Of a DNA stretch of 38,924 nt, positions 5,936-25,520 are shown piece after piece; within the stretch, counting starts at the first letter, position 1; each line of letters begins with the position of its first letter. Made by a program: the position numbers and the translations under genes. The notes beneath the pieces were generated by a model. It was not told the DNA's origin. It ran no database searches and was given only the letters and a program-made list of their open reading frames with translations. The DNA is from a virus (Duplodnaviria; Caudoviricetes), in IMG/VR virus record IMGVR_UViG_3300032257_000049, positions 1-38,924 of that record. One strand, given 5' to 3'.

Positions 5936-6271
5936 ATGAAGTTAATTTATTTAATAGGGTTAGGGGTGTTTATTTTTTATATTGCCTGGGTGCATTATCT
6001 GGCTATCATGAACCTGAAAGTCAACAAAGAGTATTTGTCAGAGCGGGTTAAAAAGCTGGCCAAGCCGGTGGTGTTTATTGGTTCGTTGTCCAATGTGCTG
6101 TTTAATTTTACAGTGGCTATTGTGTTGTTTCGTGAGCGGCCCCATGAATGGTTTTTCACACACCGTTGTCAGCGCCATCAGAGAGAATCAAGCGGCTGGC
6201 GATTGCAGCGCGCAAACTGGTGGTGTGCAAATATTTTGAACCCGTTTGATGTGAAGCGCGTGCATTGTTAG
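5936..6271 (+). CDS. Phage membrane protein of unknown function
   Basis: RBS AAGGGA before ATG 5936; two hydrophobic segments; C-terminal LNPFD..HC motif seen in genes after tail fibres. Confidence 0.6.
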   Translation: MKLIYLIGLGVFIFYIAWVHYLAIMNLKVNKEYLSERVKKLAKPVVFIGSLSNVLFNFTVAIVLFRERPHEWFFTHRCQRHQRESSGWRLQRANWWCANILNPFDVKRVHC

Positions 6272-6528: not shown

Positions 6529-6567
6529 GCGCCGCAGCCGCGCCTTCAGCAGTCCGGTTTATTTTTC
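6529..6567 (-). repeat. 39-bp repeat, copy A (inverted relative to 7502-7540)
   Basis: Reverse complement GAAAAATAAACCGGACTGCTGAAGGCGCGGCTGCGGCGC matches 7502-7540 at 37/39. Confidence 0.95.
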
Positions 6568-6908
6568 ATGATGCTTTTCAGTCCGTCACGCGCCGTCACC
6601 ACTCCTGCATAAATCAGCAATAAGCGCCACGCTGAATAAGGGATGGGCCGGTGTTCTTTTTCACCTTTGGCACTTTTCCATTTTCGGATTGTGCTTGATC
6701 CTTTTTTTGGGTTCCAGCTAACCCCCACCAGCTTGGCCGCGTCATTTTGTGACCAGCCTGCTAGATTGATTAATTGCCCCACCATTGCAGGTTCTGGCGG
6801 CAAATAGTTTTCATCAGTAAAAGGCAGCGCGCAACGCAGTTGTTCAAAGCCTGCCAGTGCCAGCGGCATGACTTCAGGTTTTTGATAATGGGCAGCGGTT
6901 TCATTCAT
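6546..6908 (-). CDS. Aca1/KorC-like HTH transcriptional repressor
   Basis: PEPAMVGQLINLAGWSQNDAAKLVG...TIRKW...RPIPYSAWRLL resembles IncP KorC (PIPYAAW) and Aca1 (AGISQRRAAELLG...RPAPY). Confidence 0.75.
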   Translation of the reverse strand: MNETAAHYQKPEVMPLALAGFEQLRCALPFTDENYLPPEPAMVGQLINLAGWSQNDAAKLVGVSWNPKKGSSTIRKWKSAKGEKEHRPIPYSAWRLLLIYAGVVTARDGLKSIMKNKPDC

Positions 6909-6925
6909 GGGTGTGGCTCCTGTTG

Positions 6926-6945
6926 GGGGCTGGCGGTCCAGCCCC
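6926..6945. other. GC-rich intergenic hairpin between radC-like and Aca/KorC-like genes
   Basis: GGGGCTGG-CGGT-CCAGCCCC. Confidence 0.7.
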
Positions 6946-6952
6946 GTGTTTG

Positions 6953-7399
6953 TTATAAAAGCCCGCGTTCAGCAAAAGACAGGGTATCATCAATGCCAAC
7001 AATCACATGATCAATCACCCGAACGTCAACCAATTCAAGTGCGTTTTTAATGCGGCTGGTGATGCGTTCATCAGCACTTGAGGGTGACACATCACCACTG
7101 GGGTGATTGTGCGTCAGGATCACAGCAGCGGCGTTTTGTTGTAGGGCTTCTTTAACGATTTCACGCGGGTAAACACTCGCGCCGTCAATGGTGCCTCTGA
7201 ACATTTCTTTTAAGCTGATTAAGCGGTGGCGGTTATTTAAAAACATGATTGAAAAAACTTCATGTTCAAGCCCTGCAAATCGTGTCAGTAAATAATCTTT
7301 AACAATTGCAGGGTTTTCAAAAAATTCATTCTGGTTAAGGTGGCCTTTTAAAATGGCTTTGGCTTGGTTGATGATCTTTTTTTCTTCTTTTGTGAACAT
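6953..7399 (-). CDS. radC: RadC-family JAB/MPN domain protein (short mobile-element form)
   Basis: EHEVF...FRGTIDGASVYPREIVKEAL...HNHPSGDVSPSSAD...DHVIVG...SFAERGLL. Confidence 0.92.
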   Translation of the reverse strand: MFTKEEKKIINQAKAILKGHLNQNEFFENPAIVKDYLLTRFAGLEHEVFSIMFLNNRHRLISLKEMFRGTIDGASVYPREIVKEALQQNAAAVILTHNHPSGDVSPSSADERITSRIKNALELVDVRVIDHVIVGIDDTLSFAERGLL

Positions 7400-7449
7400 G
7401 GTGTTTGCCTGTTGTTATTGGCTGGGCGGTTTGCCTTGCCGTTATGATT

Positions 7450-7478
7450 AATATACGCCACAGCGGGGCGGGTGTCAA
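7450..7478 (-). promoter_or_regulatory. Strong sigma70 promoter for radC-aca/korC with palindromic operator in the spacer
   Basis: Minus strand TTGACA-CCCGCCCCGCTGTGGCG (17)-TATATT. Confidence 0.85.
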
Positions 7479-7501
7479 CCCTGTGACACACTTTTTTTAA
7501 A

Positions 7502-7540
7502 GAAAAATAAACCGGTCTGCTGAAGGCGCGGCTGTGGCGC
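7502..7540 (+). repeat. 39-bp repeat, copy B (upstream of the radC promoter)
   Basis: GAAAAATAAACCGGTCTGCTGAAGGCGCGGCTGTGGCGC. Confidence 0.95.
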
Positions 7541-7560
7541 TGATATAACAGAAAATAAAT

Positions 7561-7833
7561 TTATGATTTATGGTGAAAGTGATTATCAATGGCCGTGGCA
7601 TAATCACGCGCGAGTTCTTGCGCGGCCTGATCATCACTATCAGCCACCGCTTCAAAGGCGGCGGTTAGATTCTGAAGCACGCCACGATCAGACAGGGCGG
7701 CATTGGCCAGCTGAACTGGGTCCTGCCCATAATTGCAGGGCACGTTTAGTTTTTCCAGAGCCGCCCTTGCTGCATGGCCTAGCGATTTATGCACACTGAT
7801 ACTTTGATCAGCGCCGTCTATAAAAAAATACAT
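7561..7833 (-). CDS. Small hypothetical protein (candidate anti-defence)
   Basis: 90 aa, RBS AAGGTGA, directly downstream of the ardC-like gene. Confidence 0.7.
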   Translation of the reverse strand: MYFFIDGADQSISVHKSLGHAARAALEKLNVPCNYGQDPVQLANAALSDRGVLQNLTAAFEAVADSDDQAAQELARDYATAIDNHFHHKS

Positions 7834-7858
7834 GGTGTCACCTTTGAAGGCTGGGAAA

Positions 7859-7878
7859 GCGGGGCCGGTTGGCCCCGC
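7859..7878. other. GC-rich intergenic hairpin
   Basis: GCGGGGCC-GGTT-GGCCCCGC between the ardC-like gene and the next ORF. Confidence 0.7.
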
Positions 7879-7884
7879 GTTTCG

Positions 7885-8175
7885 TTAAATGGTTTCGGTG
7901 TGGTCCTCATTAAAAACATACAGCGCTTTTAATACTTTTTTCTTTTTGTCTTCACCTGTTTTGTCGTCACTGTTTTTGTCATCTTTTTTCTTTTCGCATA
8001 CCATGAAAATCTTGCAACCCTTAGCGCCTTTTTTAACTTTACGACCTTTTTCTTTCCACTGTTTGAAACCGGCCCAGGCATCTGATTCTAGGTCATAGGC
8101 TTCTTTGTGTTCTTCTAAGTGCTGTTGATTGTTAGCTGAATAAATTGCATTGGTTACAGTGTTGAAGTTGTCCAT
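7885..8175 (-). CDS. ArdC-like N-terminal ssDNA-binding domain protein (stand-alone)
   Basis: NTVTNAIYSANN...WAGFKQWKEKGRKVKKGAKGCKI...LYVFNEDHTE matches ArdC-N/DUF1738; RBS AAAGGTGA. Confidence 0.8.
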   Translation of the reverse strand: MDNFNTVTNAIYSANNQQHLEEHKEAYDLESDAWAGFKQWKEKGRKVKKGAKGCKIFMVCEKKKDDKNSDDKTGEDKKKKVLKALYVFNEDHTETI

Positions 8176-12376: not shown

Positions 12377-12694
12377 TTAATCGTGTTGAAACATATCACC
12401 CTGATTTTCATCGTATATCGACAGATAGCCTTTTTTTCCAACATGCATGACGGTTTTTGTGGTTCTTTCTTTGTTGGTTTTTCCGGTGATGTCAGGCACG
12501 TTGAAAGTGAGTTTGTGTTTTATTTCAACTTGCTGGCTGGTGCCTTGTTGTTTAAAATCAAGTTTTATATTGATGCTGCCTGCCTTGTTAAAATTCACCA
12601 CGGCTTGTGATACTTCAGCCAGTGCTTCACCCAGTTTTTGTTCAAAAATACTGGCTTCCAGTTCTTCAATAAATTTTTGTACATCGGTTTTCAT
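12377..12694 (-). CDS. YfdP-like prophage protein
   Basis: TDVQKFIEELEASIFEQKLGEALAEV...HKL...TVMHVGKKGYLSI..QGDMF. Confidence 0.75.
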   Translation of the reverse strand: MKTDVQKFIEELEASIFEQKLGEALAEVSQAVVNFNKAGSINIKLDFKQQGTSQQVEIKHKLTFNVPDITGKTNKERTTKTVMHVGKKGYLSIYDENQGDMFQHD

Positions 12695-12709: not shown

Positions 12710-13597
12710 TTAGTGAAACGATCTGATGAGTTTAAAATAGCGCTTGGCTTCATGACCAACCCATTCACCCACGGGAACTGAAACGCCATTGCCTATCATT
12801 GTATAAGCGGCTGTGTCCGTGCAGTTAAATTGAAATGAATCTGGCACGCCCTGAAGCCGTGCATATTCGCGCACACTGTAAGGGCGCACACCCATTGGAA
12901 AACGTTTGTCTTTAACTAAGCGCGTGCTTTTATCTTTACCGTAATGCGCCACGCAGGTTGGTGCTAAATCATTATTTTTAGGGTCTGAAATAATCGGTAA
13001 GTCACGGTATCCACCTTTCATGCGTTTCATTACATAAGGGGGAATAGTTATTTCTGGGTCACGCTCTAAAATACTTTTCAACGTTTTAGCTTTGACCTTT
13101 TTAGGTGGTCGCCAGTTGAATGGTTTTTTGCTGGCCATAATAATTAAGCGGTCACGTTTTTGTGGTAGCCATGTTTGCGACTGGATAGGGCAAAAGGTTT
13201 TTATAAAATAGTTTGGCAGCTTGGTCATGGCTTCCATCACTAACGGGAATGCGCGCATACCTGGCACGTTTTCAATCACATACATTTCAGGGCTGTGAAG
13301 TGCGATGTGTCTGAGCGCATGAAGAAATAATTCATCACCGGTGCGCGTGCCGTGAATGCTGGCAATGGTTGAATATTTAGTGCAAGGATAGGTGAACACC
13401 ATCACATCAGAAGGTGAGTCATTCAGTGCCAGTTTTTCTGATATATCAATGGGCTGAATGTTGTTTTTAAAATTCTTTCGCTGAACTTTGCAGGCGGTTT
13501 TATCCAGTTCAAATGATTGTTGAATATTTAAACCGGCTTGCTGCAAACCAATATCAAAAAGTCCTGCCCCTGAAAAATAACTGTTCACATTGATCAT
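12710..13597 (-). CDS. DNA (cytosine-5)-methyltransferase, orphan
   Basis: Motifs I (FSGAG), IV (TYPC), VI (IENV), VIII (QKRDR), IX (REYARLQG), X (IGNGV); no cognate restriction enzyme seen. Confidence 0.93.
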   Translation of the reverse strand: MINVNSYFSGAGLFDIGLQQAGLNIQQSFELDKTACKVQRKNFKNNIQPIDISEKLALNDSPSDVMVFTYPCTKYSTIASIHGTRTGDELFLHALRHIALHSPEMYVIENVPGMRAFPLVMEAMTKLPNYFIKTFCPIQSQTWLPQKRDRLIIMASKKPFNWRPPKKVKAKTLKSILERDPEITIPPYVMKRMKGGYRDLPIISDPKNNDLAPTCVAHYGKDKSTRLVKDKRFPMGVRPYSVREYARLQGVPDSFQFNCTDTAAYTMIGNGVSVPVGEWVGHEAKRYFKLIRSFH

Positions 13598-13887
13598 GCT
13601 GCTTTCCCCAATTTTATTTTTTTAATTAACTCGTCTAACCAGAATAAACCGTCTGTCGTCACCATTATTTTGGTGCTGATCTGTTCACCTAAAACATCAT
13701 GCTTCCAGCTGCTGTTTTTGGTGGTTAAATACCCCTGATCAACAAAGCGTGAAAAGGGCAGGTTGATATTGGTCTGTTTGTCTTTGTAAATAATTTTTTG
13801 ATCTTTTAATAAGGCAATGAATTTGTTTCTGCCCATGCCCAGCCGTTTGGCGGTTTCTTGCAGGGTGAGATTTTTTTGCCCGTCCAT
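13594..13887 (-). CDS. Phage antirepressor, KilAC/ANT domain
   Basis: LQETAKRLGMGRNKFIALLKDQKII...NLP...QGY...VTTDGLFWL. Confidence 0.82.
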   Translation of the reverse strand: MDGQKNLTLQETAKRLGMGRNKFIALLKDQKIIYKDKQTNINLPFSRFVDQGYLTTKNSSWKHDVLGEQISTKIMVTTDGLFWLDELIKKIKLGKAA

Positions 13888-14162: not shown

Positions 14163-14192
14163 ATAATAAACATTAAGTTTATATACAGTCAA
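14163..14192 (-). promoter_or_regulatory. pL promoter with OL operator ATAAAC-N5-GTTTAT (14166-14182)
   Basis: Minus strand TTGACT-18-TATTAT; ATAAACATTAAGTTTATATAC (14166-14186) is identical to 16302-16322. Confidence 0.8.
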
Positions 14193-14282: not shown

Positions 14283-14305
14283 AAAAGCCCGCATTGCGGG
14301 CTTTT
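14283..14305. terminator. Bidirectional intrinsic terminator closing the immunity region
   Basis: AAAAGCCCGC-ATT-GCGGGCTTTT. Confidence 0.85.
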
Positions 14306-14312
14306 GAGGGGG

Positions 14313-14864
14313 TTACAGCTGGGCGCGTTTGTGCGACTGGGGGTTTTTATTGAGTATTTTGGTTAGCGTGTTGATTCGTGTTTTCAGTAGCAGGATGTCA
14401 TCACGGTTGCTTGTGGATTGTTTGACAGGGTGCGTGCGCCGCTGTTGTTCGGCCTGAATGTCCAGGGTTAGCTGATAGCGTTTTTCATCCAGTTTGAACT
14501 GACTAGCCTGTATGGTTTCCAGTCGGGTTTGTTGTTTTTCCAGCGCGCGCAGCTTGGCCATGACTTCGCTTTTGTGAAGCCTGCTTTCTTTTAGCATTTG
14601 GTCTTGTTTGGTGATGGTGGTGTTTAAGTCTTCAGGTATGGTTTCATATATATCCATACTGAATTCTAACTGGCTGATGCGTTGATCATTATTTTGTTCT
14701 GCTTGTAAACGGTTCAGCGTGGTGCCCAGGTAGGATGAGACCATTAATAAAATAGCGGCGGCCACTAATTTAAAGCCGGTTATTATTTGCCCCCTGGTGC
14801 TGCTGGCAATCAATGCTTTTTTTGCTTCTAGTTTAACGGTTTGAAGATAGCTTTCTGTTTCCAT
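14313..14864 (-). CDS. Single-TM coiled-coil membrane protein (immunity-region accessory)
   Basis: Hydrophobic LVAAAILLMVSSYL followed by a long Gln/Glu/Lys heptad-rich region; RBS AGGGG. Confidence 0.75.
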   Translation of the reverse strand: METESYLQTVKLEAKKALIASSTRGQIITGFKLVAAAILLMVSSYLGTTLNRLQAEQNNDQRISQLEFSMDIYETIPEDLNTTITKQDQMLKESRLHKSEVMAKLRALEKQQTRLETIQASQFKLDEKRYQLTLDIQAEQQRRTHPVKQSTSNRDDILLLKTRINTLTKILNKNPQSHKRAQL

Positions 14865-15025
14865 GAAATACCCCTAATTATTTATTTATTTTTTTTGTTT
14901 GCGCGGTGAACGTTATTTGATTAAAAGACTGGTGTGAAGCGGGGTCTCAAAATAGTCTTAAAATAATACTTTTGGGAATGCGGGCGCGGGTTGACGTGTG
15001 CGTTCTGGGAAAAAGTGAGACTGAT

Positions 15026-15718
15026 TTAATCAATTAATGATAATTGGTTGGCATTTTTTCGGCTTCTGGTGTCGTTACTCTGTGATGAAATGCCGATGAT
15101 GCGCAGGGGAATGGTGAAGTCATCAAATTCAGTGATGATGTAAGAAACGCGGAACTGATAACTGCCGTCATGTTTTAGAATTCGATAACTTAATATATGA
15201 ATAGAACCTGATAAATCATGCAGGCAATCTGACAGGGTATCCAGCACATTGTCATGGTCATCTTCATGAATATAATTTAGTAAGTCATCCAGGGGCACGC
15301 TGATGAAATCATCATGACTGGCAGACGGGTCAACGGTTAATTTTTGAAATGTAAACTGGCGGCTATGCACATCAATTTCCCATTCAAAAAACTTGAACAC
15401 TTCTTTTTGTAACTGCTGTTTTAATATCAAGGTATTGTTCTGTTTGAAATTGTCAGGTGACTGTTCGCGGCGATTTTCGCGCACAGAACCGGTGCCGTTG
15501 TAAATCCAGACCCAGTTAATGTGTTCATGCTCGAAAGCCAGCGCAATGCGTTTGGCGTTTTTCTCGGTGATGCGGTCAGCATTTTCCCAGCGATACAGTG
15601 ACGACTTTGCCAGCCGTTTATGCTTTGGATTGCCAGCGGTTGCCGTGGCCATGTCGTCAGGCGTATTAAAACCTAAAACTTCCCTGAGTTTTCGTATCCG
15701 ACGGGAGAAATCTTTCAC
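15026..15718 (-). CDS. XRE-type HTH fused to a C-terminal PAS (PAS_3/PAC-like) sensor domain
   Basis: N-term RIRKLRE...KSSLYRWEN...INWVWIYNGTG; C-term FEWEID...YIHEDD...YRILKHDGSYQF...PLRIIGI. Confidence 0.8.
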   Translation of the reverse strand: MKDFSRRIRKLREVLGFNTPDDMATATAGNPKHKRLAKSSLYRWENADRITEKNAKRIALAFEHEHINWVWIYNGTGSVRENRREQSPDNFKQNNTLILKQQLQKEVFKFFEWEIDVHSRQFTFQKLTVDPSASHDDFISVPLDDLLNYIHEDDHDNVLDTLSDCLHDLSGSIHILSYRILKHDGSYQFRVSYIITEFDDFTIPLRIIGISSQSNDTRSRKNANQLSLID

Positions 15719-15844
15719 AAGTATTTAACAGGACGGAATAATAAAGCGGTGATATTACTGGAAAAAAAGTCTTTATGTAACTTTTATCACGGGTTAAATG
15801 ACAGGCGTTGAATGTTGCGGGTTTACCCTAATTCAGATTGATCA

Positions 15845-16309
15845 TTAAGTGTTCAGAAGGGCGGCAAATCGCATGCCTTCCTTGATGGCTTTGGGGTTCA
15901 GTTCGTGGGTTTTCATCGCGTTTACATAGGCTTGTTTAGCAATTTTACCCAGCGCTTTGGCATCATAGCTTTCAGATAAAACACCTTCTTTGATCATTTC
16001 ATTTTGTGTTTCAATCAAAATTTCAACGATCTGGGCAAACACGTCTTCATCACCGTCACCGCTTAATGGTGTTGGTGGTGGGTTGTTTGTTCGGGTGGCC
16101 GGTTCAATACGGCCTTCACTGAGGGCTTCAAAATCCCAGTTCATGGCTTTGGCTATTGCTGACCGTTTATTGCTGGGCACACCGCGCGTGCGCCAGTTGT
16201 TATAGGTCTGGGGTTCGGTTTGGATGCGTTCACAAAATTCACGCTTGTTCAATCCCAGGCGGTCAAGTTCGGCTTCAATGGTTTTTATTAGTGCATCAAT
16301 CATAAACAT
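15845..16309 (-). CDS. CI-like repressor lacking an S24 autopeptidase domain
   Basis: HTH LGLNKREFCERIQTEPQTYNNWRTRGVP; divergent from cro; short helical C-terminus with no Ser/Lys peptidase motifs. Confidence 0.8.
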   Translation of the reverse strand: MFMIDALIKTIEAELDRLGLNKREFCERIQTEPQTYNNWRTRGVPSNKRSAIAKAMNWDFEALSEGRIEPATRTNNPPPTPLSGDGDEDVFAQIVEILIETQNEMIKEGVLSESYDAKALGKIAKQAYVNAMKTHELNPKAIKEGMRFAALLNT

Positions 16310-16391
16310 TAAGTTTATATACCTTGTTTCGTTAATCAATATACAAAGTGTTTCAATTGTGTAGACTTTGAATAAACAATATGTTTATAAT
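16302..16391. promoter_or_regulatory. OR region: operators at 16302-16318 and 16372-16388; pR TAGACT-18-TATAAT (16362-16391)
   Basis: Palindromes ATAAACATTAAGTTTAT and ATAAACAATATGTTTAT; degenerate copy at 16339-16355. Confidence 0.8.
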
Positions 16392-16396
16392 TGTTT

Positions 16397-16663
16397 ATGG
16401 ATCAGCTAACAGAAAAAGAAGCACTTGAAAAAGCCATTGCCTTTTTTGGTGGGCGGGGCGCAAAAAAACGCTTTGCCCTGGCAATGAATGTGTCAGACAT
16501 GGTGGTGAGCAACTGGCTAAAACGCCAGCTGCCTGCTGATGAGGTGCTGACGGTTGAGCGTGTGTGCGGCTATACCGTGTCACGCCATCAATTGCGGCCT
16601 TCATTGTATCCGCTGGATTTTGATTGTCAGTGTGTGGCCTGTCAGCAAAAAAAGGCGGCGTGA
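16397..16663 (+). CDS. cro: Cro/YdaS-like repressor
   Basis: ALEKAIAFFGG..FALAMNVSDMVVSNWLKR.LPA...VSRHQLRPSLY. Confidence 0.85.
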   Translation: MDQLTEKEALEKAIAFFGGRGAKKRFALAMNVSDMVVSNWLKRQLPADEVLTVERVCGYTVSRHQLRPSLYPLDFDCQCVACQQKKAA

Positions 16664-16951
16664 TCATAACCACAACGCCAGCTGACTGAAGCCGTGAAGG
16701 GCGTGGTCTTCAGAGAGTTCAAATATTTGCACCCTGTCAGCATCGGTTAATAAATGCTGGTTCAGGTGCTTAAGAATTGCGGCGGCGTGGTCATCGGTTT
16801 TAAGGCATAGGCTGATACTGCGATCTGTCACAAAGGCTGGATAAAACCGGCCTAATGGTTTGACCGCTGTTTTCAATGCATCGCCTTTACGGATTAAATG
16901 CGCGGGCGTTGGCACAGCAAAATGAATGATGAGAATAAACGTTTTATACAT
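16664..16951 (-). CDS. Small antisense protein between cro and cII (possible Cas2-like ferredoxin fold)
   Basis: 95 aa exactly filling the cro-cII gap; alternating beta/alpha pattern ending DRVQIFEL...GF...WL. Confidence 0.55.
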   Translation of the reverse strand: MYKTFILIIHFAVPTPAHLIRKGDALKTAVKPLGRFYPAFVTDRSISLCLKTDDHAAAILKHLNQHLLTDADRVQIFELSEDHALHGFSQLALWL

Positions 16952-17008: not shown

Positions 17009-17578
17009 ATGAAGACTGGTATTCATGAACCGCGCAGCATGACCATCAAACGCCATGTGAATGACTATATGCTGAACACAAATATCAGTGAACAGACGTT
17101 TGCTGAAAATGTAAAAACCATTTATCACGACAGGGTACCTGATCCTGATGACCGCGTGATTAAATTTCATGAAGGCCGTGATGCCTATGAAGACATGAAG
17201 TCAAACGGTCAGCTTTTATTTCGCATGATGAAAGCGCACGTCAAATTCCCGTCTGATATTGAAGAACCGGTTGTGCTGGCTTTGCCAGATAAAGAACAGC
17301 GTAATTTAAGAACAGCACTGGCCGCCCGTTATGATGAATTAGCGGTGCCGATTCCACACAATGAGCCAGAAGAAAATATTTATTCTTTATCGGTCTTATT
17401 AAAAACCACCGGTGCCACCATTGAAAGCCTTGCGCCTATTCTGGCAGACAACAAAATTGATGAAGCGGATATTCCGCACGCTAAAAAAGCATTGCAGGGC
17501 ATTAACCAGTCAATGGCTGAATTAATACGCTGGCAAAAAGCCATCACAGATATTTTTCCAGATAAACACGACAATTAA
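17009..17578 (+). CDS. CII-like phage regulatory protein
   Basis: Position after cro; C-terminal LADNKIDEAD motif typical of CII-like/YmfL proteins. Confidence 0.65.
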   Translation: MKTGIHEPRSMTIKRHVNDYMLNTNISEQTFAENVKTIYHDRVPDPDDRVIKFHEGRDAYEDMKSNGQLLFRMMKAHVKFPSDIEEPVVLALPDKEQRNLRTALAARYDELAVPIPHNEPEENIYSLSVLLKTTGATIESLAPILADNKIDEADIPHAKKALQGINQSMAELIRWQKAITDIFPDKHDN

Positions 17579-22132: not shown

Positions 22133-22387
22133 ATGTCAAACGCCGCGAGTGTTTCACAATACACAGGGTCAACCATTGTGGTGGTTGCCGGATTCACGCA
22201 ACACGAATGGTCTGTCATTGCTATCTTTTTTGGCTTTGTTTTGGGTGTCGCCGGTTTTTTAGTTAATTTTTATCATAAAAAACATATTCGTATTAATGAT
22301 GAAATTCATAAAAAAGCCATGTTTGAACAGGACAGAAAACACAAAGCACAGTTGATTGAAATAGCTAAAATAAAAAATGACAGTTAG
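22133..22387 (+). CDS. Holin (HP1/phage 21-like)
   Basis: SQYTGS...EWSVIAIFFGFVLGVAGFLVNFYHKK with a basic C-terminal tail. Confidence 0.75.
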   Translation: MSNAASVSQYTGSTIVVVAGFTQHEWSVIAIFFGFVLGVAGFLVNFYHKKHIRINDEIHKKAMFEQDRKHKAQLIEIAKIKNDS

Positions 22388-25300
22388 TGTTGAAAAATAC
22401 GCTGATCCTTTGGCCGTTGGTGATGGTTCAGGGTTTAATTTTGCGAATGCTTACACCAGCTTAGATGCCGCATTAATTGCAGAATGCGCCAGTGGTCAGG
22501 TTTACGCGAACATTAATGAAGTCACTGTTTCTGTAACAACGGAATTTACAACACCAAATCAGACATTAAATTTTTCAGGCTCTGGCGCTACCGCAAGATT
22601 TATTTCTTTAGTCGGTACTACATTGCAATATGAAGTAACTAGCGGAACCCCTGCACAATTTGATGTAATAACGGGAGCCATTGAAGGTGAGGCTAATTTA
22701 GCAGCAATCACGGACGATACAGGCGGAACCGTTACTATTAATCATCGGGGCAATGATACAGTCATAGTGACTACAGCGGCGGCAACAACAACAGCAATTC
22801 ATAAATTAATTATTCAAGGTGATTTTGCAGCAGCAAAACTTGATGCTACCAAATCACGAATTAATGTAGGTAATGCAACCGCATTAACTTTAGCGGCAAA
22901 CCATATTGATATAAAAGGAATTCAAGTTTTATGGCAGCCTGCCGCTAATTCAAAACGCGGCATTACCTGGACGGGCACAGGATTATTAACAACTGATTCT
23001 GTTATTTTAAAATGTGCGGCTACTGGTGGTAATTATATTCGCGGCATTGTTGCTGATGGTGATTTAACGCTGAAGAACACTATTGCCATAGATATAAAAC
23101 GCAGCTCAAATGATTACATCGCTTATTATGTTAGCGGTTCAAAAACGTTAAAAGTGTATAACAGTATTTTAGATAACTGTTATCGTGGGGTATGGAATAA
23201 TTCAACCTCTCCCGCAACAGTTAAAAATAGTGTATTAAATTGCAATGTTGTCAGCGGCGGAACAGGTGCCACTAATTTAGATAATTGCGCAACCTCTGCC
23301 GGTCTTGGGGCAAATCCGGTAATAGTAACAGACTGGAATGATGCGAAATTATTTTATAATCGCTTTCTTGGGGATTATCAGACCGCATGGGATTCTGTAT
23401 TATTAAATGCGGGTATTGGCTCAACGGTTGATGCAGAAGTCCCAGCTAATGATATTTTTGGTAATGCAATACCAGTAGCAGCGACAACAGATATAGGGGT
23501 GCATTATGATGTTGCACTTCATCCAGTAGCAACAGACCCGCGCATTGAATACGGTTTTTCAGAATCATCAGGGTTGGTGTGTGAAAACAATTACAACAGC
23601 CGGTTGAATGGTGTTATTGGTGAGCTGTTAACGGTTACTGATAACGGTGCGCCTATAACAGAATATCAAGGTTATAGTGCTGATGGTGTTAATCATCTTG
23701 TAACGTATGGCACGGCCTCTCCACTGATTACAAAATGGAATACTGACTATAGTGTTGTCATAGATCAAAATACAACACCCTATAGCGGTTATTCAACCAC
23801 CCCCAATACATTGGGCGGCTGTCAGGTTTACAACAATAAATTATATGTAAGCGCTGAAAATATATCTAACTGTCAAAGCTATACGGCTTTTATTGGCATT
23901 TATGATTTATCAATAGCGGGCTTTCCATTAGACAGTTATATTGATTTATCAGCTGAAGGTTTTGAAGTTGGCGGTGTCGCTGTTAATGCGGGCGCTGGTT
24001 ATATTTACGCCGTTTCGTTTTGTGTTTCTAATCGTGTATGGATTTATAATTTATCGTCTCCGCACAATTTTATTGGTTATATAGATTTAGATCATAGAGT
24101 TCATTGTAATGGTATTTACTATGATTCAGTTTCAGATTCATTATTTTTGGTAGCTAAAAATCAAGGGTCAAGCACCGGTTGTGAACGGATATTTAATTTT
24201 AGTTTAACCGGTCAGCTTTTGGGAAGCTGGGCACCGCCCGATATATCTGAAATTGAAGACATCGATGTGAGCACGGGTGATTTCAGATATAACTGTTACC
24301 CTAACGCAAGAATAAGAACGGCGACATATCCGACGGCACCGGTTAGAACCGTTAACAGTATTCACCTAAATAACAAATATTACATTGATGTAACTGATGA
24401 CATTACTGATGAAACGACGTTTGTTTTCGGTATAAAAGCCACGTCATTTTTTTCAGGTAATACGGTTTTTGATAGCAATCTAAGCACCACGCAATGGAAA
24501 GGTGATATTGATGCGGCGGGGTTGTTTAGTTTTAATATTGATGGCGTAAACCCTGTTACTTACACGCTGCCAAGTGCCACGACTCAATATAAGGCAGCCA
24601 TCACTATTGCCGGTAGTGGGGCAACCCGAACCGTTAAATTATATATTGATGATGTTTTGCAGGACACGCAAACACAGGACTGGATTGATCCACCAGAGGA
24701 GCGTTTTGCGTTAGGTGCTGGCAACACGGCAAACACGGCCAGTGATTGTGAATTTTTCTATTTTACCAAATTTGATTATGCGTTAAGTAGTACAGAGCTG
24801 ACGAACTACACGCCGCCCGCGCCACTGTCAATATTATTGACAGTGCAAAATAGTTTGTCAGCGCAATCACTTGATAATGTGGTGTTAACACAAGCAAACG
24901 TTCTTTCTGTTAATGGGTCGTTGTCCACACAGACAATAGATAACCTGGCGTTAACACAAGCCAACACCATTGCGATTGATTCAATGTTATCAGCACAGGT
25001 GATTGACAATATTGACTTAACGCAGGCCAATATTTTAATAATTGATGACAGCCAGTCAGCACAGTTGCTTGATGATCTGGTTTTATCAATAGCAAGCCAG
25101 CTGACAATTCAGGAAAGTCTGTCTTCACAAACAACTGACAATATTGACTTAACACAAGCCAACACCATTGCGATTGATTCAACGTTATCAGCACAGTTGA
25201 CTGACAATCTTGAATTAACGCAGGCTAACATTTTAATAATTGATGGCAGTCAGTCAGCGCAGTTGCTTGATGATCTGGTTTTATCAATAGCAAGTCAGCT

Positions 25301-25520
25301 GACAATTCAGGAAAGCCTGTCTTCACAAACAACTGACAATATTGACTTAACACAATCAAATACACTGGTGATTGATAACACGTTATTGATTCAGCTGTTG
25401 GATAGTTTATTTATTAATAATGGCGTGAACGTGCCCACGGGTGATCTGGTGTTGCTGATCAGTGATGAAGGGCGTTTATTGGTCGTTACTGATGAGCATA
25501 AAAAAATGACGATTCATTAA
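22377..25520 (+). CDS. Large fibre/adhesin-like protein (beta-helix, beta-propeller, LamG-like domain, 22-aa stalk repeats)
   Basis: 1047 aa; Asn-ladder region, propeller-like blades, LamG-like KLYIDD...FDYALSSTE, C-terminal repeats. Confidence 0.7.
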   Translation: MTVSVEKYADPLAVGDGSGFNFANAYTSLDAALIAECASGQVYANINEVTVSVTTEFTTPNQTLNFSGSGATARFISLVGTTLQYEVTSGTPAQFDVITGAIEGEANLAAITDDTGGTVTINHRGNDTVIVTTAAATTTAIHKLIIQGDFAAAKLDATKSRINVGNATALTLAANHIDIKGIQVLWQPAANSKRGITWTGTGLLTTDSVILKCAATGGNYIRGIVADGDLTLKNTIAIDIKRSSNDYIAYYVSGSKTLKVYNSILDNCYRGVWNNSTSPATVKNSVLNCNVVSGGTGATNLDNCATSAGLGANPVIVTDWNDAKLFYNRFLGDYQTAWDSVLLNAGIGSTVDAEVPANDIFGNAIPVAATTDIGVHYDVALHPVATDPRIEYGFSESSGLVCENNYNSRLNGVIGELLTVTDNGAPITEYQGYSADGVNHLVTYGTASPLITKWNTDYSVVIDQNTTPYSGYSTTPNTLGGCQVYNNKLYVSAENISNCQSYTAFIGIYDLSIAGFPLDSYIDLSAEGFEVGGVAVNAGAGYIYAVSFCVSNRVWIYNLSSPHNFIGYIDLDHRVHCNGIYYDSVSDSLFLVAKNQGSSTGCERIFNFSLTGQLLGSWAPPDISEIEDIDVSTGDFRYNCYPNARIRTATYPTAPVRTVNSIHLNNKYYIDVTDDITDETTFVFGIKATSFFSGNTVFDSNLSTTQWKGDIDAAGLFSFNIDGVNPVTYTLPSATTQYKAAITIAGSGATRTVKLYIDDVLQDTQTQDWIDPPEERFALGAGNTANTASDCEFFYFTKFDYALSSTELTNYTPPAPLSILLTVQNSLSAQSLDNVVLTQANVLSVNGSLSTQTIDNLALTQANTIAIDSMLSAQVIDNIDLTQANILIIDDSQSAQLLDDLVLSIASQLTIQESLSSQTTDNIDLTQANTIAIDSTLSAQLTDNLELTQANILIIDGSQSAQLLDDLVLSIASQLTIQESLSSQTTDNIDLTQSNTLVIDNTLLIQLLDSLFINNGVNVPTGDLVLLISDEGRLLVVTDEHKKMTIH
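24835..25410 (+). repeat. Coding 66-bp (22-aa) tandem repeats with a higher-order 198-bp duplication
   Basis: About 9 units of L.(I/V).(D/N)S.S.Q..DN..LTQAN; TTAACACAAGCCAACACCATTGCGATTGATTCAA at 24951 and 25149. Confidence 0.9.

What the first reader, a model, noticed from the sequence alone, without database searches (positions are those of the whole stretch)
14283..15718. XRE-HTH/PAS one-component sensor plus a membrane coiled-coil protein in the lambda rexAB slot
Seen: two genes lie co-oriented downstream of cI, between OR (16302) and OL (14166), and are closed by a terminator. One is a 230-aa XRE HTH joined to a PAS_3/PAC-like domain (FEWEID, IHEDD, YRILKHDGSY, PLRIIGI). The other is a 183-aa single-TM coiled-coil protein. 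Established: lambda keeps the lysogen-expressed RexA/RexB pair in this slot; PAS domains bind small ligands or cofactors; phage VP882 uses a PAS-LuxR receptor (VqmA-phage) to tie lysis to a host autoinducer. Inference: this is a different architecture (XRE-PAS) that may let the prophage sense a metabolite, redox or quorum cue, and either steer lysis-lysogeny or control a membrane exclusion/abortive effector. Best candidate here for an undescribed system.
Basis: partly seen in the sequence, partly recalled or inferred. Interest (0 to 1): 0.82.

Follow-up and report, generated by a model that had tools for sequence, protein, structure and literature searches.

The report
Prophage HTH-PAS regulator with clamp-binding tail
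A temperate phage carries, beside its repressor, a conserved two-gene cassette: a predicted DNA-binding sensor protein whose tail matches the motif that docks proteins on the host's replication clamp, and a predicted membrane protein that it likely controls; if so, the prophage would tie a likely defence function to both a chemical cue and DNA replication.

Summary
Two intact genes (15026-15718 and 14313-14864, minus strand) lie between the cI-like gene and OL and end at a terminator. The first is a cI/XRE-like HTH plus a PAS domain (AlphaFold pLDDT 81; PAS Z 11). The second is one hydrophobic segment plus a long helix. I found 7 distinct loci, the window included (27-70% identity). The membrane gene follows the HTH-PAS gene in 7 of 7 (one weak match). 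A cI-like gene precedes it in 5 of 6; in one phage the pair sits away from cI and keeps its upstream element. New: all 7 proteins end in a beta-clamp-binding-type motif (window QLSLI; 5 of 7 strict, 7 of 7 with Ile allowed; 0 of 125 control PAS proteins) in a predicted disordered tail. The spacer before the membrane gene holds ~10-11-bp-phased repeats. It is not RexAB, VqmA or MmyB by defining features. Best reading (0.38): a mobile lysogenic module in which a ligand- and clamp-coupled regulator sets the level of a membrane exclusion/defence protein. Ligand, clamp binding and output are untested. New variant of a known kind.

The parts
14163..14192 (-). PL-like promoter (TTGACT-18-TATTAT) with operator OL (14167-14181) between the hexamers
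   Evidence: conserved in L012
14282..14306 (.). intrinsic terminator-like hairpin closing the cassette
   Evidence: 12-bp perfect arms; similar hairpin after the membrane gene in 5 of 6 testable loci
14313..14864 (-). 183-aa protein: short N-terminal helix, one hydrophobic segment (aa 27-45), long helix/coiled coil, conserved EQxRR motif (aa 139-143)
   Evidence: family length 76-190 aa; codon-position identity to L012 0.63/0.68/0.47
14944..15011 (-). spacer direct repeats: TTCCCA at 15011 and 14978, TTTTRARAC at 14963 and 14952; candidate regulator sites
   Evidence: TTCCCA 2-3 times in 4 related spacers, 0 of 1000 shuffles; motif chosen after looking, loci related
15026..15718 (-). 230-aa HTH-PAS protein (HTH aa 1-75, linker, PAS aa about 112-214, disordered tail)
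15032..15046 (-). C-terminal QLSLI, a beta-clamp-binding-type motif (aa 225-229)
   Evidence: motif definition from PMC11139829; tail pLDDT under 50
15725..15735 (-). CGTCCTGTTAA element just upstream of the HTH-PAS start, kept in L008 where no cI precedes
   Evidence: 5-12 of 1000 shuffles
15776..15791 (-). GTTACA-containing element resembling a CRP site (consensus recalled), at -73 to -61 in 4 of 6 loci
15845..16309 (-). cI-like repressor: HTH plus helical C-terminal domain with no peptidase hit; this domain was found only beside the cassette
16303..16387 (.). OR region, two operators (16303-16317, 16373-16387)
16391..16663 (+). Cro/YdaS-like gene

Best explanation
This is a conserved, movable two-gene accessory module of a lambda-like temperate phage, in which an HTH-PAS protein likely acts as a one-component regulator of the neighbouring predicted membrane-protein gene, is likely tuned by a small ligand in its PAS pocket and is predicted to dock on the host beta sliding clamp through its tail, with the membrane protein most likely serving exclusion of or defence against other phages. 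Shown: gene order, linkage in 7 of 7 loci, both domains, the tail motif, the terminator, and the upstream and spacer elements. Inferred steps: (1) the lysogen makes the regulator by read-through from the cI promoter and from its own promoter; (2) it dimerises through PAS and binds the phased repeats in front of the membrane gene; (3) a polar ligand or cofactor shifts this binding; (4) the tail couples its activity to clamps loaded on replicating DNA, as for Mu MuC; (5) the single-pass protein, with its helix probably outside the inner membrane, carries the output.
For: Linkage to the membrane gene in 7 of 7 loci at 27-70% identity, including L008, where the pair follows a RadC gene and a homologue of window 6546-6908, not cI. 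The CGTCCTGTTAA element moves with the gene. No strong hairpin between cI and the cassette (best -1.9 to -4.8 kcal/mol in the 5 loci with cI), but a strong one after it in 5 of 6. Tail motif in 7 of 7 (5 strict), 0 of 125 control PAS proteins, 27 of 10219 control 15-mers. It was first seen in 2 proteins and then found in the other 5; it occurs in pentamer and hexamer form and was not part of the search pattern. Family-specific invariant PAS residues: H167, R190 and S211 occur in only 8, 8 and 12% of 226 control PAS domains. Spacer repeats at 10-11-bp period differ by lineage, as do the recognition helices. Precedents read: MuC needs clamp-binding motifs to activate transcription (PMC12867686); RexAB and BstA occupy this slot (PMC11077077, PMC8585504).
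Against: No function was measured. The defence role rests on position alone; PADLOC gave only weak HTH-region hits in 1 of 14 proteins. The window's own motif ends in Ile, outside the strict consensus. The 7 loci are related, about four lineages from three dataset prefixes, so they are not 7 independent trials. XRE dimers usually bind palindromes (recalled), so direct repeats may belong to a host regulator; no single spacer shows a significant 6-mer repeat on its own (64-1000 of 1000 shuffles). The L008 membrane ORF matches the family profile only at E 0.076. The hydrophobic segment is moderate (1.65-2.24) and its topology is untested. L004 and L006 lack the upstream element, and L004 lacks the terminator.
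Confidence: 0.38

Rival explanations
1. Lysis-lysogeny sensor: the HTH-PAS protein reads a cue and acts on the switch, by contacting the non-cleavable cI or by controlling an antirepressor, as the RecA-independent trigger of this phage.
For: cI has no peptidase domain hit. Its C-terminal domain was found only next to this cassette, even where its HTH has diverged (L006, 19% identity overall). No LexA-type box lies in the control region (one match at 6098, chance level; consensus recalled). A KilAC antirepressor gene lies at 13594-13887. TF-smORF modules and VqmA-phage do this in other phages (PMC10432266, PMC8284805).
Against: In L008 the pair lies away from cI. Paired TTCCCA repeats occur only in the spacer, not at PL, PR or ant. 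The constant partner is a predicted membrane protein, not a small soluble antirepressor. The cI searches were narrow and found few members, so co-occurrence may be shared ancestry.
Confidence: 0.25
2. Rex-like direct sensor-effector pair: the soluble protein detects replicating foreign DNA through HTH plus clamp tail and activates the membrane protein by contact, giving abortive infection without a transcription step.
For: Soluble DNA-binding protein plus membrane protein in the rexAB slot; strict pairing; BstA from the same slot localises to phage replication sites (PMC8585504 abstract listing).
Against: One hydrophobic segment, not RexB's four (PMC11077077). Only about 25 residues precede the segment. 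The spacers are 112-204 nt with their own repeats. The conserved EQxRR motif lies on the far side of the segment from the N-terminus.
Confidence: 0.15
3. Ordinary moron: an autoregulated HTH protein whose PAS domain only dimerises, with a tail that is not a clamp ligand (for example a proteolysis signal), and a membrane protein serving lysogenic conversion.
For: PAS domains can serve as interaction modules (PMC10468136). HTH+PAS proteins are common (Atlas clusters of 51-796 members). No known cofactor motif was identified.
Against: The tail keeps Q, the aliphatic residue, L and the last hydrophobic residue in two known motif forms while its flanks drift by indels. Family-specific polar residues are invariant in PAS.
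Confidence: 0.22

Closest known systems
Lambda RexA/RexB
   Same: Slot between cI and PL; soluble DNA-binding protein followed by a membrane protein; probable lysogenic expression.
   Different: RexA is an RdgC-like non-specific DNA binder and RexB has four predicted helices (PMC11077077). Here there are an HTH+PAS protein and a single-segment helical protein, long spacers, and a module that also sits elsewhere.
Phage Mu Mor/MuC activators
   Same: Phage transcription factor with a terminal beta-clamp-binding motif (PMC12867686).
   Different: Mor/MuC are lytic middle/late activators without a PAS domain. This protein has a sensor domain and lies in the lysogenic slot; its clamp binding is untested.
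MmyB/MltR family
   Same: N-terminal XRE HTH plus C-terminal PAS-related ligand domain (PMC3406030 abstract).
   Different: No MLTR_LBD hit in any family member scanned; the domain is PAS_3-like, close to kinase PAS repeats; phage-borne; one member lies in a Gammaproteobacteria MAG, whereas MmyB is mainly actinomycete.
VP882 VqmA-phage/Qtip and TF-smORF modules
   Same: Phage-encoded PAS-containing or XRE transcription factor paired with one target gene.
   Different: VqmA is N-terminal PAS plus C-terminal HTH; its targets are divergent small soluble antirepressors on linear plasmid phages. Here the order is reversed and the partner is co-oriented and predicted to be membrane-bound.
BstA (Salmonella BTP1)
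   Same: Defence gene downstream of the repressor; acts at replicating phage DNA.
   Different: Single gene; no PAS, regulator or membrane partner described in the passages read; homology not tested directly.

Membership tests
PAS domain (PAS_3-like) | PAS fold | tested here: met
   Model pLDDT 80.7; 3h9w Z 11.3, rmsd 2.9 over 102 residues; Foldseek 3mr0 E 1.3e-5; Pfam just under the cut-off for the window, over it for P0010 and P0011
PAS domain (PAS_3-like) | Binds a ligand or cofactor | not testable with these tools
   Invariant H167 (end of the predicted F-alpha helix), R190 and S211 are rare in control PAS domains; no LOV-type cysteine motif (recalled) is seen in the alignment
cI/XRE-like HTH | Helical HTH domain homologous to phage repressors | tested here: met
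   4 of 7 members hit phrog_8, 3 of 7 phrog_4, the window protein none; hhalign to the cI HTH 74%; repressor HTH rows in BFVD; no sensible PDB sequence hit
Beta-clamp ligands (CBM) | Q-phi-x-[LM]-[FL] or Q-phi-x-[LM]-x-[FL], Ile tolerated in the last place (PMC11139829) | tested here: met
Beta-clamp ligands (CBM) | Motif in an exposed tail or loop | tested here: met
   Residues 215-230 have pLDDT under 50, beyond the last PAS strand
Beta-clamp ligands (CBM) | Physical binding to DnaN that depends on the motif | not testable with these tools
   Needs two-hybrid, SPR or ITC
RexAB | Position directly downstream of cI | tested here: met
   5 of 6 loci with visible upstream DNA
RexAB | RexA-type (RdgC-like) soluble component | tested here: not met
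   The protein is accounted for end to end by HTH, linker, PAS and tail
RexAB | Four-helix membrane component | tested here: not met
   One hydrophobic segment is evident in the 6 aligned members
RexAB | Phage exclusion | not testable with these tools
   Needs plating assays
VqmA-phage / TF-smORF | N-terminal PAS with C-terminal HTH | tested here: not met
   Order is HTH then PAS
VqmA-phage / TF-smORF | Divergent small antirepressor ORF as target | tested here: inconclusive
   Upstream is an 81-126-nt spacer and then cI; short antisense ORFs were not screened for conservation
MmyB/MltR | XRE N-terminal, PAS-like C-terminal | tested here: met
MmyB/MltR | MLTR_LBD profile (PF17765) | tested here: not met
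   No hit in 6 full-length members scanned; PAS_3 in 4 of them

The most novel reading that the evidence does not exclude
A prophage one-component regulator that reads two inputs at once, a small ligand or redox cofactor in PAS and loaded beta clamps on DNA (host replication state, or an invading phage's replication), and uses them to switch on a membrane defence protein or to tip a RecA-independent lysis-lysogeny switch. It would be a clamp-tethered sensor acting in lysogeny; none was found in the literature searches run.
Probability: 0.2. Interest if true: 0.85.

Novelty: new variant of a known kind. Interest (0 to 1): 0.62.

Why it matters
Clamp use by a transcription factor working with the E. 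coli clamp was shown only recently, for Mu's lytic activators, whose authors expect it to be more widespread (PMC12867686). A ligand-sensing regulator with the same tail in the lysogenic slot would extend that to prophage decisions or defence, and would give a direct way for a prophage to sense replication without RecA. The prediction is cheap to test with two tail mutations. The family is small so far (7 loci), which limits its reach.

Tried and rejected
Complex prediction of the PAS+tail (aa 100-230, alignment A6) with a Gammaproteobacterial beta clamp (A7): no answer, score 0.14 against a mark of 0.32, controls not folded; this is no evidence either way. No RNA holder listed for the region; not evidence on expression. 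Word-index protein searches found only the protein itself, or 3 of the 6 aligned members. No tblastn match for the HTH-PAS protein in phages or plasmids or for the membrane protein in phages. Single-sequence viral scans found nothing; profile and pattern scans found only one relative. Of the 12 pattern matches, L005, L009 and L013 were dropped as non-members (no profile hit; tblastn E 2.4 or none), L007 is the window, L003 duplicates L012 and L014 duplicates L004. Membrane profile in 97 genomes of G001's order: 1 real hit and 3 weak ones with stops. cI profile in 400 class genomes: only G001 for the C-terminal domain; 5 HTH-only hits. PDB sequence searches gave nothing significant. VIA-align rows were all PAS-region matches, so the HTH was barely tested there. 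SlyX (E 0.001) and GspL (E 0.04) hits to the membrane family were taken as coiled-coil noise. The QLALWL tail of ORF 16664-16951 is QLAVWL in both relatives, so it was rejected as a conserved clamp motif. Earlier scan findings: none returned. The membrane model was not sent to a fold search (single helix).

Full report
Context. The window is a 38.9-kb virus record with integrase, lambda-type head genes, primase/VapE replication genes, a Q-like gene, a C5 methylase and a KilAC antirepressor. The control region is lambda-like: cro (16391-16663), cII-like (17009-17578), a cI-like gene (15845-16309) and three exact operators TAAAC-N5-GTTTA at 14167, 16303 and 16373. The cI has an HTH but no peptidase hit. 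The host is not known; one relative lies in a Gammaproteobacteria MAG, which is binning, not proof of host.

Observation. Codon-position identity to the L012 orthologues is highest at position 2 and lowest at position 3 (0.55/0.64/0.42 and 0.63/0.68/0.47), as expected of conserved protein genes. GC content (0.43, 0.45) matches the genome (0.43). One contig of a public run that may be the source spans the cassette without difference.

The soluble protein. An AlphaFold model from 6 sequences (pLDDT 80.7) shows a helical N-domain, a flexible linker, a helix, a PAS sheet and a disordered tail from residue 215. Foldseek and VIA-align give PAS domains (3mr0 E 1.3e-5; 3h9w Z 11.3, rmsd 2.9, 102 residues). 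The N-domain is cI/XRE-like by family hits in relatives and by profile alignment. Of 130 hits among 1.84 billion representatives, 5 are of similar length and match both domains (the window included); the other 125 are longer proteins matched almost all over the PAS part, and the four of them scanned are multi-PAS proteins. The Atlas holds other HTH+PAS_3 clusters, among them one of 796 members with Phage_CI_repr on 58%, so the architecture alone is not unique.

Related loci. A pattern for WEID...HDL...YR gave 12 matches in three collections. After dropping 3 non-members and 2 duplicates, 7 distinct loci remain, the window included, at 27-70% identity. The pattern fixes those residues by construction; the six proteins aligned beforehand already had them. 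The membrane gene follows on the same strand after 112-204 nt in 7 of 7. L010 is cut after 50 codons. L006 (114 aa) matches a leave-one-out profile at E 1.5e-10; L008 (76 aa) matches only at E 0.076, though it is the best of the non-profile ORFs among 653 and has the EQxRRT motif. A cI-like gene with the same C-terminal domain precedes the pair in the window, L012, L010, L004 and L006; L011 is cut. In L008 the pair follows a RadC gene and a homologue of window 6546-6908. The loci come from three dataset prefixes and about four lineages.

The tail. The C-termini are QLSLID, QLDLLTD, QMELLDD, QLELLQEE, QMELEISETS, QIKLKL and QIPLNF. The review read defines clamp motifs as Q-phi-x-[LM]-[FL] or Q-phi-x-[LM]-x-[FL], tolerates Ile in the last place and notes acidic flanks (PMC11139829). 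Five of 7 fit strictly (counting Met as aliphatic) and 7 of 7 with Ile. None of 125 control PAS proteins has it in the last 15 residues; 27 of 10219 internal 15-mers do. Among 35 window genes one other has it, and among the 190 locus ORFs of 100 aa or more one non-member. Homologues are not independent, but the motif persists in both forms across 27-45% identity. Mu MuC needs such motifs to bind the clamp and activate transcription (PMC12867686). Binding here is untested.

Cis elements. CGTCCTGTTAA just upstream of the start and a GTTACA element at -73 to -61 are shared by the window, L012, L010 and L008, but not L004 or L006. As L008 lacks cI upstream, these likely belong to the gene's own promoter. 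No strong hairpin separates cI from the cassette, so read-through is also open. The second spacer has TTCCCA 2-3 times in four related loci, mostly 10-11 bp apart (33 bp in the window), TTYTCGGA four times in L008 and TTCGCTC once each in L004 and L006. The joint statistic beat 1000 of 1000 shuffles, but the motif was chosen after looking, the loci are kin, and per-spacer repeat tests were not significant. These are candidate sites only.

The membrane protein. About 25 residues, one segment of moderate hydrophobicity, then a helix of variable length (5-96 residues) before an invariant EQxRR and a short terminal helix. No family match of weight in Pfam, PHROGs, NCBIfam or PADLOC. An outward-facing helix is inferred, not shown. 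The tolerance of large deletions suggests a spacer stalk carrying a conserved tip.

Mechanism. The simplest reading that uses every feature is a regulator-effector module: HTH-PAS controls the membrane gene, with PAS ligand and clamp tail as inputs (0.38). Defence or exclusion is the favoured output only because RexAB and BstA hold this slot. A switch-controlling role (0.25) gains from the non-cleavable cI whose C-domain was seen only beside the cassette, and loses from L008. A direct Rex-like pair (0.15) and an ordinary moron (0.22) remain.

Literature seen. PMC12867686: abstract, introduction and start of results (part 1 of 7) plus passages. PMC11139829, PMC8284805, PMC11077077, PMC8585504, PMC10468136, PMC10432266: passages. 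PMC3406030: abstract and outline. Searches listed no description of a phage XRE-PAS regulator with a membrane partner or clamp tail; I saw only listings for the other papers, subscription journals are largely absent, and no supplements were read (the Mor/MuC alignment and the PAS cluster tables could bear on novelty and ligand). LexA and CRP consensus sequences, the LOV motif and the palindrome preference of XRE proteins are recalled.

Verdict. A real, conserved, rare and apparently undescribed module built from known kinds of parts; new variant of a known kind; interest 0.62.

Noticed in passing
window 16664-16951 (-): 95-aa ORF antisense between cro and the cII-like gene, about 60% identical in L012 and L010, no Pfam or PHROG hit; a conserved gene in an unusual place.
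   Followed up: partly
window 15845-16309 (-): cI-like repressor with a helical C-terminal domain of no known family and no peptidase; the operator overlaps its probable start codon, suggesting a leaderless or short-leader message.
   Followed up: partly
window 12377-12694 (-): phrog_204 protein ends QGDMFQHD, loosely like a clamp motif; its L006 homologue has QTQMF near the end.
   Followed up: no
window 22377-25520 (+): 1047-aa protein between the Q-like gene and the head genes, no Pfam hit, with C-terminal repeats shared with L012; looks like a large surface or fibre protein.
   Followed up: partly
L004 3304-3903 (+): 199-aa probable lipoprotein inserted head-to-head after the membrane gene, in the same slot; no NCBIfam hit.
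   Followed up: partly
L006 2007-2192 (+): 61-aa ORF that looks like a CsrA homologue (recognised from memory, not scanned) in the early-left operon.
   Followed up: no
window 6546-8175 (-): RadC-like JAB gene, ArdC N-terminal fragment and a 120-aa HTH-like gene near the integrase; RadC and the 120-aa gene are 64-71% identical in L008 and L012 and flank the moved cassette in L008.
   Followed up: partly
window 15818-15827: GGGTAAACCC near-palindrome just after the cI stop, kept in L012 and partly in L010.
   Followed up: no
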